A DNA stretch of 64,000 nucleotides from Escherichia coli (GTDB taxonomy: Bacteria > Pseudomonadota > Gammaproteobacteria > Enterobacterales > Enterobacteriaceae), in NCBI RefSeq assembly GCF_045037415.1, contig NZ_CP173438.1. The stretch is one strand, 5' to 3'. Shown here one piece after another: positions 11,384 to 54,378 of this stretch. How positions within the stretch are numbered: position 1 is the first letter of the stretch; the number at the start of each line of letters is the position of its first letter. The translations under genes were made by a program, and so were the position numbers. The notes under the pieces were generated by a model that saw nothing but the letters and a program-made list of their open reading frames with translations, did no database searches and was not told where the DNA came from.

Positions 11384-12560
<1,177 letters not shown>

Positions 12561-15053: not shown

Positions 15054-15395
15054 TTAGTTACCACTCAGCGCAGGTTTGTTATCAATGTTGGTCAACACAC
15101 CGCTACTGTTAAAGGTCAGCGTCAGCGTTTGCTGCGTTACACCTTCATGACCAGGTTGCTGGCGGAAGACATAGAACCAGGTATTTGTACCAAATGGATC
15201 GGACATCAGCGGTGTACCCAATGCGTACGCAACTTGTTGTTGCGTCATGCCAACACGTATTTTGGATACGTCGTTAGCGGTCAGATAGTTCCCCTGGTTG
15301 ATGTCAGGACGGTAAACCACTCGCTCCAGAGTGGAACAGCCTGCGGTCAACATCAATAGTACTGCTGCTGCAGCAGTCAGCGTTTTACAGCGCAT
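15054..15395 (-). CDS. bamE: BamE (SmpA), outer-membrane lipoprotein of the BAM complex
   Basis: 113-aa [38 protein letters not shown]... with a lipobox (LTAGC). Confidence 0.95.
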
Positions 15396-15543
15396 AGTGA
15401 TTTGATTCCTTTTCGGGCCCGAGCAGTACGTGGCTCATCTGTAATATGCCGATGATAATAGACCTTTCATCACTTTAAAACCTTTTGCTTTCCGGTCTTA
15501 CGGCGTTTTGCTGTTTACTCTGACCGTGAAGCAGGAAAAAAGT

Positions 15544-17205
15544 TTACGCCGCAAGCAGTTCTTTCGCATTCGCCAGTGTGTTACGTGTGACTTCACTGCC
15601 ACCAAGCAGGCGCGCCAACTCTTGTAACCGCGCTTTTTTATCCAGGGATTGCATATGCGTTTCTGTCATCGCACCATCGGTTTCTTTGCTGACAAAATAG
15701 TGTTGATGACCATATCCCGCGACTTGTGGCAGGTGGGTAACACACATCACCTGAGTTGATTCGCCAAGTTGACGTAGCAGTTTGCCGACAACTGCCGCTG
15801 TTGGGCCGCTAATCCCTACATCCACTTCATCAAAAATCAGTGCTGGGGTTTCCATTTTACGCGCGGTAATGACCTGGATTGCCAATGCGATGCGGGACAA
15901 CTCACCACCGGATGCGACTTTGGCAATAGGCTGCATTGGCTGACCTGGGTTGGTGGTTACCCGAAACTCAATACGATCAGCGCCGTCAGCGCCCAGGTGA
16001 TGCTCGTCAAATTTAACATCGATCGTAAACTGCCCATGTGGCATAGAGAGTGCATGCATACTATCGGTGATCAGCTGTGCCAACTCATTTGCATAATGCT
16101 GGCGTTGCTGGTGTAACGCGCGCGCCGTTTCCAGTGCCTGCTGATGATGTTTCGTTACCGCCAGCGCGAGCGTTTCTTGTGAGTCGGCCTGATCGTCCAG
16201 TTGCTGCTGTTCTTCCAGTAGCGACTGGTAATACTGTGGCAATGCCTCAGGGCTGACGTGATGTTTACGTGCCAGCGAAATCTGTTTTGAGATGCGCTGT
16301 TCAAGTTCAAACAGTCGGTTGGGATCGAGATCCAGACGATCGCAGTAGTGGCGTAGTTCATCACTGGCTTCAGCAATCTGGATGGTAGCCTCTTCCAGCA
16401 TATCAAGTACGCCGGACAGTTTGCTGTCCATGCCAATCAATTCGCTCACCAGTTGTTTAGCCGTGTAAAGTTGACTTTGCAGATTTGCGTCTTCACCGTC
16501 AGCCATTAATGCCAATGCATTCTGGCTGGTGGTCAGCAATTGACCGCTGTTCGCCAGACGTTTGTACTCTTCGTCGATTTGCTCAAACTCTCCAGGCTGC
16601 GGATTAAATTCGTTAAGTTCTTTTAATTGGTATTGCAGCAGCTCCGCACGGGCGGCGCGTTCCTGACTTAACTGCTGATGATGCGCGAGGTCACGGCAGC
16701 TTTGATGCCACAACTGATAACGTGCGGTCATTTCCTGGAGCTGAGAGGTTTCATTGGCATAGCCATCAAGCAGGAATTTTTGGTGCTCGGGTTTGGTGAG
16801 TAACTGATGAGCGTGCTGACCATGGATCTGAATCAGCAACTGACCCAGTTCGCGCAGTTGTGACAGAGGAACAGCTGTACCGTTGATGAAACCACGGGAG
16901 CGACCATCGCTGCTGATTACGCGACGAAGCAAACATTCATGCCCGTCTTCAAGCTGGTTTTCTTCCAGCCAACGCAGGGCCGCTGGCGTATCTTTCAGAG
17001 AAAAACGGGCGCACAGGTCGGCACGAGCAGCGCCGGTACGCACCATGTCGGCTTCAGCGCGACCACCGAGACAAAGGCCGAGGGCATCTATTGCAATAGA
17101 TTTACCCGCGCCGGTCTCGCCAGTTATTACGGTCATGCCGCTATGAAAATCAATCTCAAGCTCACGAACGATAGCAAAGTTGCTGATGGTCAGTTGTGCC
17201 AACAT
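15544..17205 (-). CDS. recN: RecN, SMC-like DNA repair ATPase
   Basis: 553-aa [45 protein letters not shown]... with a Walker A motif. Confidence 0.95.
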
Positions 17206-17231
17206 AGTTGTTTTCCTGTATGAAAAACCAT

Positions 17232-17273
17232 TACTGTTATTGTGTACAGTATAAACTGGTTTTATATACAGTA
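17232..17273 (-). promoter_or_regulatory. recN SOS operator: at least two LexA boxes
   Basis: Minus strand reads CTGTATATAAAACCAG (plus 17256-17271) and CTGTACACAATAACAG (plus 17234-17249), both matching CTGT-N8-ACAG, immediately upstream of recN. Confidence 0.75.
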
Positions 17274-17290
17274 AAGAGGCTGGCGTAAAA

Positions 17291-18169
17291 TTAGAATAAT
17301 TTTTTTGACCAGCCGAGCTTGGTGCTTAATGTATTGAAATAACTGTAATCTTTCGGATGAATCAGATTCAGATGGTAATCACAGCGACGAATCAGGACAT
17401 CTTCACCTTCCTGAATCGGAAGTGCTATCTGGCTGTCGCAACTGATTTCCAGGTCGTTACGGCGATGCGAAAAACGCAGACGGATCGTGCTGCTGCTGTT
17501 TATGACCAGTGGTCGTGCTGACAACGTATGCGGGAACATGGGCACCAGGGTAATCGCATCCAGAGAGGGTGTCAGAATAGGACCGCCCGCAGAGAGGGAA
17601 TATGCGGTGGAGCCTGTTGGCGTCGAAATAATCAGTCCATCGGAACGCTGCGAAAACGCAAAGATCTCGTCGATATACACTTCGAACTCAATCATATGCG
17701 CTACTTTGCCAGGATGAAGTACCACTTCGTTAATCGCCGTGCTGATGCGTTTCTGGCAATCTTGCTGACAGACTTGCGCTTCCAGCAAAAAACGTTTCTC
17801 GCTGATGTAGTGGCCTTCCAGCACATCGGCTAATTGTTGCTGGGCGTTATCGGGATCAAGGTCAGTCAGGAAACCCAGGTTGCCACGGTTGATTCCAATA
17901 ACTTTAATATCGTAGCGGGCGAGCGTGCGCGCCGCGCCCAGCATATTACCGTCGCCGCCAACGACAACCGCGAGATCAGCCTGTTGCCCAATCTCCGCGA
18001 GCGTGCCAGTTTTCACATTCTTCAGTTGCAGTTCGTGAGCGATTTGTTGCTCAACGATGACCTCGTAACCTTTTGTGCACAGCCAGCGGTAGAGCATTTC
18101 ATGTGTTGTCAGTGCAGTGGGGTGCCGTGGGTGTCCCACAATGCCAATACACTTGAAATGATTATTCAT
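17291..18169 (-). CDS. nadK: NadK, NAD kinase
   Basis: 292-aa [33 protein letters not shown]... with the GGDGN motif. Confidence 0.95.
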
Positions 18170-18217
18170 TTTTCCGAGGTCCTTGTTGCGAAGATTGATG
18201 ACAATGTGAGTGCTTCC

Positions 18218-18246
18218 CTTGAAACCCTGAAACTGATCCCCATAAT
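18218..18246 (+). promoter_or_regulatory. Sigma-32 heat-shock promoter of grpE
   Basis: CTTGAAA at 18218-18224 and CCCCATAAT at 18238-18246 match the sigma-32 -35 and -10 consensus with 13 bp spacing, about 45 bp upstream of grpE. Confidence 0.75.
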
Positions 18247-18258
18247 AAGCGAAGTTAG

Positions 18259-18885
<627 letters not shown>

Positions 18886-52806: not shown

Positions 52807-53394
52807 TTAATAGAAAATGCGTACCGCGCAATAGACCAGCAACAGGGCAAGCACGATATTTAACTGGCGACCATACTGGCGAAACAATCGCTGAAACAGA
52901 TGCCCCGCCAGCGCCCAGCACACATTGCCAAACGTCCCAATCATCGCCAGCAAAACGCTGACGCCAACTACCCAGCTTAGCGCCTGTGTTTGCGGCAGAA
53001 CAAACGTCGACAGTGCCGTAACACCGTACAAAATGATTTTGACGTTCACAAACTGCAAAGCAAAGCTGGCCCAAAAGCTGATTGGTTTTGCCTGAAGTCC
53101 GTCTTCCTTTGTTGGGCTGGTGGCGATTTTCCACGCCAGCCAGACAATATATGCCGCCCCCGCCCAACTCAAAAGGTGTACCGCTGCCGGGTCAATCACT
53201 GCCAGTGAAAATGAAATGCCCGCACACAGTAACATCACAATCAAAAATCCCAGACTCATCCCTGCCAGCACACGGGTACTTTGACGAAATCCATGCGACG
53301 TAGCAGAGCTAAGGGCGAGAATATTGTTCGGTCCTGGCGTCATGGCGGTAATCAGGGTGTAAGTCCAAAAAGCACTTAAAAGGGTCGGTGTCAC
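52807..53394 (-). CDS. eamB: EamB (YfiK), LysE/RhtB-family cysteine / O-acetylserine exporter
   Basis: 195-aa hydrophobic ORF MTPTLLSAFWTYTLITAMTPGPNNILALSSATSHGF...; recognised as YfiK. Confidence 0.9.
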   Translation of the reverse strand: MTPTLLSAFWTYTLITAMTPGPNNILALSSATSHGFRQSTRVLAGMSLGFLIVMLLCAGISFSLAVIDPAAVHLLSWAGAAYIVWLAWKIATSPTKEDGLQAKPISFWASFALQFVNVKIILYGVTALSTFVLPQTQALSWVVGVSVLLAMIGTFGNVCWALAGHLFQRLFRQYGRQLNIVLALLLVYCAVRIFY

Positions 53395-53496
53395 TTGTTA
53401 TCTCCTCTGTTTTGGTAGACAGTACCCGACACGGAACATTTAAAAAAATGAATGTTTTTACATTCTAAATTCGATATTTTCGATAGGTTTGGGGTT

Positions 53497-54378
53497 ATGG
53501 ATCTGCGCCGTTTTATTACGCTTAAAACCGTGGTGGAAGAGGGTTCCTTTTTGCGAGCTTCGCAAAAATTGTGCTGTACACAATCGACGGTGACTTTTCA
53601 TATTCAGCAGCTTGAGCAGGAGTTCTCGGTACAATTGTTTGAGAAAATTGGTCGACGAATGTGCCTTACCCGCGAAGGAAAAAAGCTGCTGCCGCACATC
53701 TATGAACTTACCCGAGTGATGGATACGCTTCGTGAGGCTGCTAAAAAAGAGTCGGATCCGGACGGGGAACTACGCGTTATTTCAGGCGAAACGTTGCTCT
53801 CTTATCGAATGCCGCAGGTGTTGCAGCGTTTTCGGCAACGCGCTCCAAAAGTGCGTTTATCGTTGCAGTCGCTGAACTGTTACGTGATCCGTGATGCGCT
53901 ACTGAATGATGAGGCCGATGTCGGGGTTTTTTATCGCGTAGGGAATGATGATGCTCTGAACCGACGAGAGTTGGGTGAACAACCGCTGGTGCTGGTGGCT
54001 TCACCGCAAATTGCAGATGTCGATTTTACTGAGCCGGGAAGACATAACGCCTGTAGCTTTATTATCAACGAACCACAATGTGTCTTCCGGCAGATATTTG
54101 AGAGCACGCTGCGCCAGCGGCGGATCACGGTGGAAAACACCATTGAGCTTATAAGTATCGAAAGCATCAAGCGTTGTGTCGCGGCAAATATCGGAGTCAG
54201 TTACCTGCCGCGTTTTGCGGTAGTAAAAGAGTTGGAGTGCGGAGAATTAATTGAATTGCCTTTTGGCGAACAGTCGCAGACCATTACGGCAATGTGCGCT
54301 CACCATGCCGGAAAAGCGGTTAGCCCGGCGATGCACACTTTTATTCAGTGTGTTGAAGAGTGTTTTTTGCCGGGATAA
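53497..54378 (+). CDS. yfiE: YfiE, LysR-family transcriptional regulator
   Basis: Start at MDLRRFITLKTVVEEGSFLRASQKLCCTQSTVTFHIQQLEQEF... (LysR helix-turn-helix), 293 aa; divergent from yfiK. Confidence 0.9.
   Translation: MDLRRFITLKTVVEEGSFLRASQKLCCTQSTVTFHIQQLEQEFSVQLFEKIGRRMCLTREGKKLLPHIYELTRVMDTLREAAKKESDPDGELRVISGETLLSYRMPQVLQRFRQRAPKVRLSLQSLNCYVIRDALLNDEADVGVFYRVGNDDALNRRELGEQPLVLVASPQIADVDFTEPGRHNACSFIINEPQCVFRQIFESTLRQRRITVENTIELISIESIKRCVAANIGVSYLPRFAVVKELECGELIELPFGEQSQTITAMCAHHAGKAVSPAMHTFIQCVEECFLPG

What the first reader, a model, noticed from the sequence alone, without database searches (positions are those of the whole stretch)
17232..17273. Tightly packed LexA operator upstream of recN
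Two CTGT-N8-ACAG-type boxes (one perfect at the ends, one with a single mismatch) sit 6 bp apart on the minus strand immediately upstream of recN. This matches recN being among the most tightly SOS-repressed genes. A third overlapping box may exist but I could not confirm it by eye.
Basis: partly seen in the sequence, partly recalled or inferred. Interest (0 to 1): 0.2.

Follow-up and report, generated by a model that had tools for sequence, protein, structure and literature searches.

The report
Known triple LexA operator of recN

Summary
The window is E. coli chromosome, with grpE, nadK, recN and bamE in that order. Read on the recN (minus) strand, 17273..17254 is TACTGTATATAAAACCAGTT and 17251..17232 is TACTGTACACAATAACAGTA. 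Their 16-bp cores lie exactly 6 bp apart.

A LexA weight matrix built only from 16 non-recN E. coli sites scores them 25.2 and 17.7 bits. These are the two best scores in the 64-kb window, with about 1e-4 and 0.03 such sites expected by chance.

TAATGGTTTTTCATACAGGA (17233..17214) scores 13.3 bits, third best in the window, overlaps box 2 by 2 bp and covers the Shine-Dalgarno sequence.

Box 1 overlaps the -35 hexamer (TTTACT) and box 2 the -10 hexamer (TATACT). Both hexamers end in TACT, which is the start of a LexA half-site.

All 80 recN loci fetched from other Enterobacteriaceae keep boxes 1 and 2 at the same distances from the ATG. Box 3 keeps an invariant TG...ATACAGG but is weak (median 9.3 bits).

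Published work already reports three SOS boxes for recN in E. coli and Salmonella, at the same 8, 26 and 48 bp distances. Verdict: correct, ordinary and already known. Only the function of box 3 remains partly open.

The parts
17254..17273 (-). LexA box 1 (strong): TACTGTATATAAAACCAGTT. It overlaps the last 4 bp of the -35 hexamer and fills the 16-bp promoter spacer.
   Evidence: 25.2 bits with the recN-free matrix, the best score in the window. It is higher than 12 of 16 reference sites scored leave-one-out. The sequence is identical to the recN site listed in PMC3009722 Table 4. A site is present 47-49 bp before the ATG in 80 of 80 orthologous loci.
17232..17251 (-). LexA box 2 (medium): TACTGTACACAATAACAGTA. 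It overlaps the last 4 bp of the -10 hexamer and the predicted transcription start.
   Evidence: 17.7 bits, second best in the window. A site is present 25-27 bp before the ATG in 80 of 80 loci. The half-sites are invariant (1.99 bits per column) while the spacer varies (1.26 bits), as expected for a dimer-binding site.
17214..17233 (-). LexA box 3 (weak, sub-consensus left half ATG instead of CTG): TAATGGTTTTTCATACAGGA. It shares 2 bp with box 2, lies downstream of the predicted start and covers the Shine-Dalgarno sequence.
   Evidence: 13.3 bits, third best in the window. TG at 17230-17229 and ATACAGG at 17221-17215 are invariant in 79 distinct orthologous sequences. The median score in orthologues is only 9.3 bits. 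Tolerated substitutions preserve the LexA score better than substitutions never observed. The literature lists a third recN box 8 bp from the ATG (PMC8072944).
17270..17275 (-). -35 hexamer TTTACT of the recN promoter
   Evidence: The only sigma-70-like site in 17100-17400, matching 9 of 12 positions with a 16-bp spacer. Invariant in all orthologues at 2.0 bits per column.
17248..17253 (-). -10 hexamer TATACT of the recN promoter
   Evidence: invariant in all orthologues. The transcription start near 17241 is inferred from the usual distance downstream of a -10 hexamer and was not measured.
17214..17217 (-). Shine-Dalgarno AGGA of recN, inside the right half of box 3, 8 nt before the ATG
   Evidence: Read directly from the sequence. 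AGG is invariant in orthologues.
15544..17205 (-). recN coding sequence (553 aa), the regulated gene
   Evidence: ORF. NCBIfam NF008121 DNA repair protein RecN, 1065 bits, full length. Annotated as recN in RefSeq E. coli genomes.

Best explanation
The region 17214-17275 is the promoter and operator of the E. coli SOS gene recN. Three LexA-dimer binding sites lie head to tail, with centres 22 and 18 bp apart.

In undamaged cells, LexA on box 1 covers the -35 hexamer and the promoter spacer. LexA on box 2 covers the -10 hexamer and the transcription start. RNA polymerase therefore cannot bind. The two hexamers (TTTACT and TATACT) each end in TACT, the first bases of a LexA half-site. As a result the 22-bp offset between the boxes equals the offset between the -35 and -10 hexamers.

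Box 3 is weak. It lies about +9 to +28 relative to the predicted start, over the DNA that encodes the ribosome-binding site. It most likely adds a third repressor, possibly helped by the neighbouring dimer, and so lowers the basal level further.

After DNA damage, RecA filaments on single-stranded DNA stimulate LexA self-cleavage, the sites empty, and recN is transcribed strongly.

Shown here: the sequences, their matrix scores, their overlap with the promoter hexamers, and their conservation. Taken from the literature: LexA dependence and damage induction of recN. Inferred: the transcription start, occupancy of box 3, and any cooperativity between dimers.
For: The window is E. coli and the gene is recN. 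The three best scores of a recN-free LexA matrix across the whole 64-kb window all fall within 60 bp upstream of recN, at 25.2, 17.7 and 13.3 bits. Shuffles expect 0, 0.013 and 0.19 sites per window at those thresholds. The only promoter-like site in the spacer has its -35 overlapped by box 1 and its -10 overlapped by box 2.

In 80 recN loci from Enterobacteriaceae (RecN 83-99% identical), boxes 1 and 2 are present at fixed distances in 80 of 80. Both hexamers and the CTG/CAG half-sites are invariant, whereas the 14 bp between the nadK stop and the -35 are scrambled (0.63 bits per column). Substitutions tolerated in boxes 1, 2 and 3 cost far less LexA score than substitutions never seen (p = 0.0025, 2e-5 and 0.017).

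Within E. coli, the 141-bp region is at least 99% identical in 5354 of 5426 records. The surrounding 2.9 kb reaches that level in only 1017 records. The sampled variants differ only outside the boxes.

[quoted passage not shown] Salmonella recN has 3 boxes at 8, 26 and 48 bp from the ATG and is induced 39-fold (PMC8072944). The recN site TTTACTGTATATAAAACCAGTTTAT appears in a UV-induced LexA motif (PMC3009722). A LexA repressor footprint at recNp is reported from a mutational reporter assay (bioRxiv 10.1101/2025.05.13.653802).
Against: No binding or expression experiment can be run here, and the primary paper (Rostas et al. 1987) is not held. The transcription start is only predicted.

Box 3 is weak. 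Only 1 of 16 reference sites scores lower under leave-one-out. Its left half is ATG rather than CTG in 77 of 79 distinct orthologous sequences, and its median score in orthologues is 9.3 bits. FIMO missed it in Salmonella (PMC8072944). Its right half coincides with the Shine-Dalgarno sequence, which would be conserved whether or not LexA binds.

One paper reports only 2-3-fold higher recN-lacZ expression in a lexA deletion strain (PMC6015884). That fits poorly with very tight repression.
Confidence: 0.93

Rival explanations
1. Only boxes 1 and 2 are functional operators. 'Box 3' is a half-site look-alike produced by other constraints on the 5' untranslated region: the right half ACAGGA is the ribosome-binding site and the U-rich tract serves translation. 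LexA does not occupy it in vivo.
For: Box 3 scores 13.3 bits in E. coli but has a median of 9.3 bits in orthologues, below 15 of the 16 leave-one-out reference scores. Its left half is ATG, not CTG, in 77 of 79 sequences. Its spacer is more conserved (1.76 bits) than that of box 2 (1.26 bits), which LexA binding alone does not explain. FIMO failed to find it in Salmonella, where its heterology index is 12.97 (PMC8072944).
Against: TG and CAG are invariant at exactly the LexA palindrome spacing, while the neighbouring positions 17232, 17228 and 17226 vary. The only two changes at position 3 are A to C, which creates the consensus CTG (L026 and L041). Tolerated substitutions outside the Shine-Dalgarno part preserve the LexA score (mean -0.18 against -2.69 bits, permutation P = 0.005). 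It is the third best site in 64 kb and sits in register with box 2.
Confidence: 0.3
2. The operator is shared with DnaA. A DnaA box overlapping a LexA box lets DnaA repress recN independently of LexA, as proposed in PMC6015884.
For: PMC6015884 reports 2-3-fold higher recN-lacZ expression in a dnaA(A345S) mutant, additive with loss of LexA, and describes an overlapping DnaA box. Two one-mismatch matches to TTWTNCACA lie in the operator, at 17270-17262 inside box 1 and at 17227-17219 inside box 3. About 0.18 such matches are expected per 80 bp.
Against: There is no perfect DnaA box. The box 1 match (TTATATACA) is simply the reverse of the LexA consensus CTGTATATAA, so the resemblance comes with any good LexA site. 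The CACA in the spacer of box 2 is not conserved in position across genera. No DnaA-binding data for recN were accessible.
Confidence: 0.12
3. The matches are chance occurrences of a short palindrome in AT-rich intergenic DNA.
For: The bare CTGT-N8-ACAG pattern with up to one mismatch is not enriched in the window (25 against 18.8 expected). The spacer is 32% G+C, which favours the AT-rich motif.
Against: Even with the spacer's own composition, the expected number of sites in 85 bp is 9e-7 for box 1 and 2e-4 for box 2. Position and half-sites are conserved in 80 of 80 genomes next to fully scrambled neutral sequence.
Confidence: 0.01

Closest known systems
E. coli K-12 recN promoter/operator (Rostas, Morton, Picksley and Lloyd 1987, Nucleic Acids Res 15:5041, cited in PMC10714372; the three boxes are also listed by Fernandez de Henestrosa et al. 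2000 and Courcelle et al. 2001)
   Same: It is the same locus. Box 1 with its flanks is letter-for-letter the recN site printed in PMC3009722 Table 4. There are three boxes, as stated in PMC10714372. From my memory of Fernandez de Henestrosa 2000 (not checked here), the published boxes are TACTGTATATAAAACCAGTT, TACTGTACACAATAACAGTA and TAATGGTTTTTCATACAGGA, with heterology indices of about 5.2, 9.4 and 11.5. My own indices with the symmetrised matrix are 4.1, 9.2 and 12.2.
   Different: Nothing of substance. The strains sampled differ from this window only at two bases in the spacer between the nadK stop and the -35, and at one base between the Shine-Dalgarno sequence and the ATG.
Salmonella enterica recN operator (PMC8072944 Table 1)
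   Same: Three boxes at 8, 26 and 48 bp from the ATG, exactly the distances measured here. Strong induction (39-fold).
   Different: The central spacer of box 2 differs. In the S. enterica subsp. arizonae locus L015 the left flank of box 3 is TC rather than TA, which lowers its score to 9.3 bits. The relative strength of boxes 1 and 2 is reversed (heterology index 8.82 against 7.72).
The tandem double operator of the lexA gene itself
   Same: Adjacent LexA boxes about two helical turns apart over a promoter, giving multi-dimer repression (established knowledge; one lexA box is in PMC3009722 Table 4).
   Different: It has two boxes rather than three and no site over the ribosome-binding region. 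The spacing of about 21 bp is from my memory, against 22 and 18 bp here.
Overlapping double SOS boxes of colicin operons (cea, caa)
   Same: More than one LexA dimer per promoter gives very low basal expression of a product that is harmful if made constitutively (established knowledge, not tested here).
   Different: These are plasmid genes. Their boxes overlap each other more closely, and additional regulators are involved.

Membership tests
Gammaproteobacterial LexA operator (SOS box, consensus TACTG(TA)5CAGTA) | A 20-bp imperfect palindrome with CTG and CAG 10 bp apart, scoring within the range of validated sites | tested here: met
   Boxes 1 and 2 score 25.2 and 17.7 bits against a leave-one-out reference range of 7.5-27.7 bits. 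They are the two top scores in the window.
Gammaproteobacterial LexA operator (SOS box, consensus TACTG(TA)5CAGTA) | The same criterion applied to box 3 (17214-17233) | tested here: inconclusive
   It scores 13.3 bits, below 15 of 16 references, and its left half is ATG rather than CTG. However, it is third best in the window, TG..CAG is invariant in orthologues, and its substitution pattern preserves the LexA score.
Gammaproteobacterial LexA operator (SOS box, consensus TACTG(TA)5CAGTA) | Position overlapping or adjoining the promoter of the regulated gene | tested here: met
   Box 1 overlaps the -35 TTTACT and box 2 overlaps the -10 TATACT. The promoter comes from a consensus scan plus complete conservation. 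The transcription start was not measured.
Gammaproteobacterial LexA operator (SOS box, consensus TACTG(TA)5CAGTA) | Conservation of site and position upstream of orthologous genes | tested here: met
   80 of 80 Enterobacteriaceae loci carry boxes 1 and 2 at 47-49 and 25-27 bp from the ATG. The half-sites are invariant next to scrambled neutral sequence.
Gammaproteobacterial LexA operator (SOS box, consensus TACTG(TA)5CAGTA) | Physical binding of LexA (footprint, gel shift or ChIP) | not testable with these tools
   Literature only. A LexA repressor footprint at recNp is reported in a reporter-mutagenesis study (bioRxiv 10.1101/2025.05.13.653802). The primary paper is not held.
Gammaproteobacterial LexA operator (SOS box, consensus TACTG(TA)5CAGTA) | LexA-dependent, damage-inducible expression of the downstream gene | not testable with these tools
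   Literature only. recN is strongly UV-induced in E. coli (PMC3009722) and nalidixic-acid-induced in Salmonella (PMC8072944). It is 'tightly regulated by LexA' (PMC10714372).
DnaA box (TTWTNCACA) | A perfect or near-perfect 9-mer, conserved in position | tested here: not met
   Only one-mismatch matches are present, and they derive from the LexA consensus or the AT-rich tract. The CACA in the box 2 spacer is not conserved in position.

The most novel reading that the evidence does not exclude
Box 3 may be kept deliberately sub-consensus. Its left half is ATG rather than CTG in 77 of 79 distinct sequences, although a single A-to-C change would create a good site, and that change has occurred in two lineages. 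It is embedded in the DNA that encodes the ribosome-binding region. It might be filled only through cooperation with the dimer on box 2. It might also act as a roadblock against transcription reading through from the constitutive upstream gene nadK, which has no conserved terminator in the 85-bp spacer. Either role could help explain how recN combines a very low basal level with early, strong induction. As far as I know, neither role has been demonstrated for recN.
Probability: 0.15. Interest if true: 0.3.

Novelty: already known. Interest (0 to 1): 0.08.

Why it matters
It matters little as a discovery. The recN operator has been textbook SOS biology since 1987, and the recN promoter is a routine SOS reporter (for example PMC13076628 and PMC4713147).

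The comparative data add small refinements. The three-box layout is fixed at single-base resolution across the Enterobacteriaceae genera sampled here. Both promoter hexamers are fused to LexA half-sites. Box 3 evolves under a LexA-like constraint even though it is held in a weak form.

Tried and rejected
1. Enrichment of the bare CTGT-N8-ACAG core with up to one mismatch gave 25 matches against 18.8 expected. This is uninformative, so I replaced it with a full 20-bp matrix.

2. I tried to read Rostas et al. 1987 (PMC305946) and Courcelle et al. 2001 (PMC1461638) for the footprinted or tabulated operators. Neither is held. I used PMC3009722 Table 4 as the reference set instead and left out its recN entry to avoid circularity.

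3. I considered whether the hairpin across the nadK stop codon is a conserved terminator belonging to the operator. It is strong in Escherichia (z -4.6 to -5.1) but not across genera (median z -0.84, with z below -2 in 12 of 77). I rejected it as a conserved part.

4. I tested the DnaA box claimed in PMC6015884. Only one-mismatch matches are present, and the LexA consensus itself explains them.

5. I considered an upstream ORF starting at the ATG inside box 3 (17231-17229, 13 codons, overlapping the recN start). It has no Shine-Dalgarno sequence, shows no three-base periodicity of variation, and its ATG becomes CTG in two lineages. Rejected.

6. A known RNA element in the spacer or 5' UTR: Rfam gives only a sub-threshold match on the opposite strand (PYLIS_3, 19.6 bits against a gathering score of 38). 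Rejected.

7. Other LexA sites in the window: the next-best scores are 12.4, 11.9 and 11.1 bits, within the range of shuffled maxima (11.5 +/- 2.2). Not pursued as SOS boxes.

Full report
WHAT IS THERE. The window is Escherichia coli chromosome. The stretch 15400-18300 is 100% identical to several complete genomes and is present in 5425 of 5426 E. coli genomes, where it is annotated recN, nadK and grpE. The ORFs were confirmed independently. 17205..15544 (minus strand, 553 aa) is RecN (NF008121, 1065 bits). 18169..17291 (minus) is NAD kinase. 18292..18885 (plus) is GrpE. 15395..15054 (minus) is BamE. The finding sits in the 85-bp spacer between nadK and recN (17206-17290, 32% G+C).

THE OBSERVATION. 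Read on the recN strand, the spacer is:
...TAA TTTTACGCCAGCCTC TTTACT GTATATAAAACCAGTT TATACT GTACACAATAACAGTAATGGTTTTTCATACAGGAAAACAACT ATG.
Box 1 is TACTGTATATAAAACCAGTT (17273..17254), with core CTGT-N8-CCAG. Box 2 is TACTGTACACAATAACAGTA (17251..17232), with core CTGT-N8-ACAG. The cores are 6 bp apart (17255-17250).

IS IT MORE THAN CHANCE? The bare core pattern is not enriched: with up to one mismatch it occurs 25 times in the window against 18.8 +/- 4.0 expected. I therefore built a 20-bp weight matrix from the 16 non-recN LexA sites aligned in Table 4 of PMC3009722, symmetrised it, and scanned both strands.
- The three best scores of the entire window are box 1 (25.2 bits), box 2 (17.7 bits) and a third site, TAATGGTTTTTCATACAGGA at 17233..17214 (13.3 bits). 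The next best site anywhere scores 12.4 bits.
- Exact p-values per site are 1.3e-9, 4.9e-7 and 6.4e-6.
- In 300 dinucleotide-preserving shuffles the window maximum averaged 11.5 +/- 2.2 bits. Sites at or above 17.6 bits occurred 0.013 times per window, and sites at or above 25 bits never occurred.
- Scored leave-one-out, the reference sites span 7.5-27.7 bits. Box 1 beats 12 of 16, box 2 beats 4 of 16 and box 3 beats 1 of 16.
The third box is marginal on score alone, but a site that good has only a 2e-4 to 2e-3 chance of falling within this spacer.

ANATOMY.
- The only sigma-70-like promoter in 17100-17400 is -35 TTTACT (17275-17270), a 16-bp spacer, and -10 TATACT (17253-17248).
- Box 1 starts inside the -35 hexamer and fills the spacer. 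Box 2 starts inside the -10 hexamer and covers the predicted start near 17241, which is inferred and not measured.
- Both hexamers end in TACT, the first four bases of a LexA box. The offset between hexamers (22 bp) therefore equals the offset between boxes (22 bp), and the promoter amounts to a 22-bp direct repeat of T(T/A)TACTGTA.
- Box 3 is centred 18 bp further downstream and shares 2 bp with box 2. Its right half ACAGGA contains the Shine-Dalgarno AGGA, 8 nt before the ATG.
- The centre-to-centre distances of 22 and 18 bp correspond to 2.1 and 1.7 helical turns. The first two dimers would lie on nearly the same face of the helix and the third roughly a quarter-turn round. Any cooperativity is inference.

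COMPARATIVE EVIDENCE. A scan of one genome per species with RecN returned 80 loci from Escherichia, Citrobacter, Salmonella, Enterobacter, Klebsiella, Raoultella, Kosakonia, Kluyvera, Atlantibacter, Cedecea, Buttiauxella and others, with RecN 83-99% identical.
- Every locus has a site of at least 12.6 bits ending 47-49 bp before the ATG and a site of at least 15.9 bits ending 25-27 bp before it. These are the 48 and 26 bp distances published for Salmonella (PMC8072944 Table 1).
- In an alignment of 79 distinct sequences, the 14 bp between the nadK stop and the -35 are essentially randomised (0.63 bits per column). Both promoter hexamers are invariant (2.0 bits). The box 2 half-sites are invariant (1.99 bits) while its spacer drifts (1.26 bits). 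That is the expected footprint of a dimeric repressor.
- Box 3 behaves differently. TG (17230-17229) and ATACAGG (17221-17215) are invariant. Position 3 is A in 77 sequences and C in the other two, which gives the consensus CTG (L026 and L041). The spacer is more conserved than that of box 2 (1.76 bits). The score is at least 9 bits in 69 of 81 sequences, with a median of 9.3.
- In the non-Shine-Dalgarno part of box 3, tolerated substitutions change the LexA score by -0.18 bits on average. Substitutions never observed would change it by -2.69 bits (Mann-Whitney p = 0.017, permutation P = 0.005). This is the same direction as the positive controls, box 2 (p = 2e-5) and box 1 (p = 0.0025). Caveats: the numbers are small, the lineages are not independent, and an A/T mutation bias would mimic part of the effect.
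- Within E. coli, the 141 bp around the operator are at least 99% identical in 5354 of 5426 records, whereas the surrounding 2.9 kb reach that level in only 1017. The two divergent strains examined differ only in the neutral spacer and between the Shine-Dalgarno sequence and the ATG.

MECHANISM. LexA dimers on boxes 1 and 2 occlude the -35 and -10 elements and so exclude RNA polymerase. This is supported by position and conservation here, and by the literature for LexA dependence. A third, weak site over +9 to +28 probably adds to repression (confidence about 0.65). RecA-stimulated LexA self-cleavage after DNA damage releases the promoter (established SOS knowledge).

Literature support:
- recN is among the most prominently UV-induced genes (PMC3009722).
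- recN is induced 39-fold in Salmonella (PMC8072944).
- A LexA repressor footprint at recNp is reported in a massively parallel reporter study (bioRxiv 10.1101/2025.05.13.653802).
One discordant report finds only 2-3-fold derepression of a chromosomal recN-lacZ fusion in a lexA deletion strain and proposes additional repression by DnaA (PMC6015884). The sequence offers only one-mismatch DnaA-box matches, and these follow from the LexA consensus itself.

COMPARISON WITH WHAT IS KNOWN. This is the E. coli recN operator itself. Box 1 with its flanks is identical to the published recN site. The number of boxes and their distances from the ATG agree with published statements. My heterology indices (4.1, 9.2 and 12.2 with the symmetrised matrix) are close to the values I recall from Fernandez de Henestrosa et al. 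2000 (about 5.2, 9.4 and 11.5; from memory, not checked). The nearest analogues are the double operator of the lexA gene and the double boxes of colicin operons.

VERDICT. The feature is already known and ordinary. The only partly open point is whether, and how, the weak third box works. The most novel reading not excluded is a site kept deliberately weak that acts cooperatively or as a roadblock to nadK read-through. I give that a probability of about 0.15, and it would be of modest interest.

Noticed in passing
window 17278-17314 (minus strand), followed by UCUUUACU at 17277-17270: The RNA across the nadK stop codon folds into a long two-part hairpin: outer stem GGCUGGU/GCCAGCC and inner stem AAAAUUA/UAAUUUU, at -16 kcal/mol and z = -3.4. 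Its U-rich tail is the recN -35 hexamer. It may be a nadK terminator that the simple scan missed because of its internal loop. It is strong in Escherichia (z about -5) but not conserved across genera (median z -0.84).
   Followed up: partly
window 17275-17266 and 17253-17244 (minus strand): The -35 (TTTACT) and -10 (TATACT) hexamers both end in TACT and continue with GTA. The promoter is therefore a 22-bp direct repeat of T(T/A)TACTGTA, in which each polymerase-contact hexamer is fused to a LexA half-site. It is invariant in all 79 distinct orthologous sequences.
   Followed up: yes
window 17221-17227 (spacer of box 3): The central spacer of box 3 (TTTTTCAT) is more conserved across Enterobacteriaceae than the spacer of box 2 in the same genomes (1.76 against 1.26 bits per column). 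LexA binding alone does not explain this. It may reflect a constraint on the 5' UTR or on translation initiation.
   Followed up: partly
window 17231-17190 (minus strand): The ATG inside box 3 opens a 13-codon ORF ([13 protein letters not shown]) that overlaps the recN start out of frame. It has no Shine-Dalgarno sequence and no codon-periodic variation, and the ATG is CTG in L026 and L041. It is probably not translated.
   Followed up: partly
L034, L036, L038, L039, L042, L047, L053, L062 and L065, ending 71 bp before the recN ATG: Nine loci, most of them labelled Enterobacter, carry an additional weak LexA-like site (for example TTCTGATTTTGCATCCAGCA, 10.4-12.4 bits) spanning the nadK stop codon, 23 bp upstream of box 1. 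This may be a fourth box specific to that lineage. E. coli has no site of at least 9 bits at that position.
   Followed up: no
window 53405-53424: The fourth-best LexA-matrix hit (12.4 bits, perfect CTGT-N8-ACAG core, CTCTGTTTTGGTAGACAGTA) lies in the divergent intergenic region between a cysteine/O-acetylserine exporter gene (52807-53394, minus) and a LysR-family regulator gene (53452-54378, plus). The score is within the chance range. A LysR-type dyad is at least as plausible as a LexA site.
   Followed up: partly
window 12477-12496: The fifth-best LexA-matrix hit (11.9 bits, TATTGTGATCAAAAACAGCA) scores at chance level. By coordinate offset to the SK1144 annotation (not verified on the window itself), it lies about 115 bp upstream of glaH (csiD). 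It contains TGTGA, which looks more like a CRP half-site than a LexA box.
   Followed up: no
window 17270-17262 and 17227-17219: One-mismatch matches to the DnaA box TTWTNCACA lie inside LexA boxes 1 and 3. PMC6015884 claims DnaA co-represses recN. The box 1 match is inherent to the LexA consensus read backwards, so sequence alone cannot support or exclude the claim.
   Followed up: partly
window 17180-17320 compared with 15400-18300: Across 5426 E. coli records, the 141 bp containing the operator are at least 99% identical in 5354. The surrounding 2.9 kb of coding sequence reach that level in only 1017. The non-coding operator is therefore more conserved than the synonymous sites around it.
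   Followed up: yes
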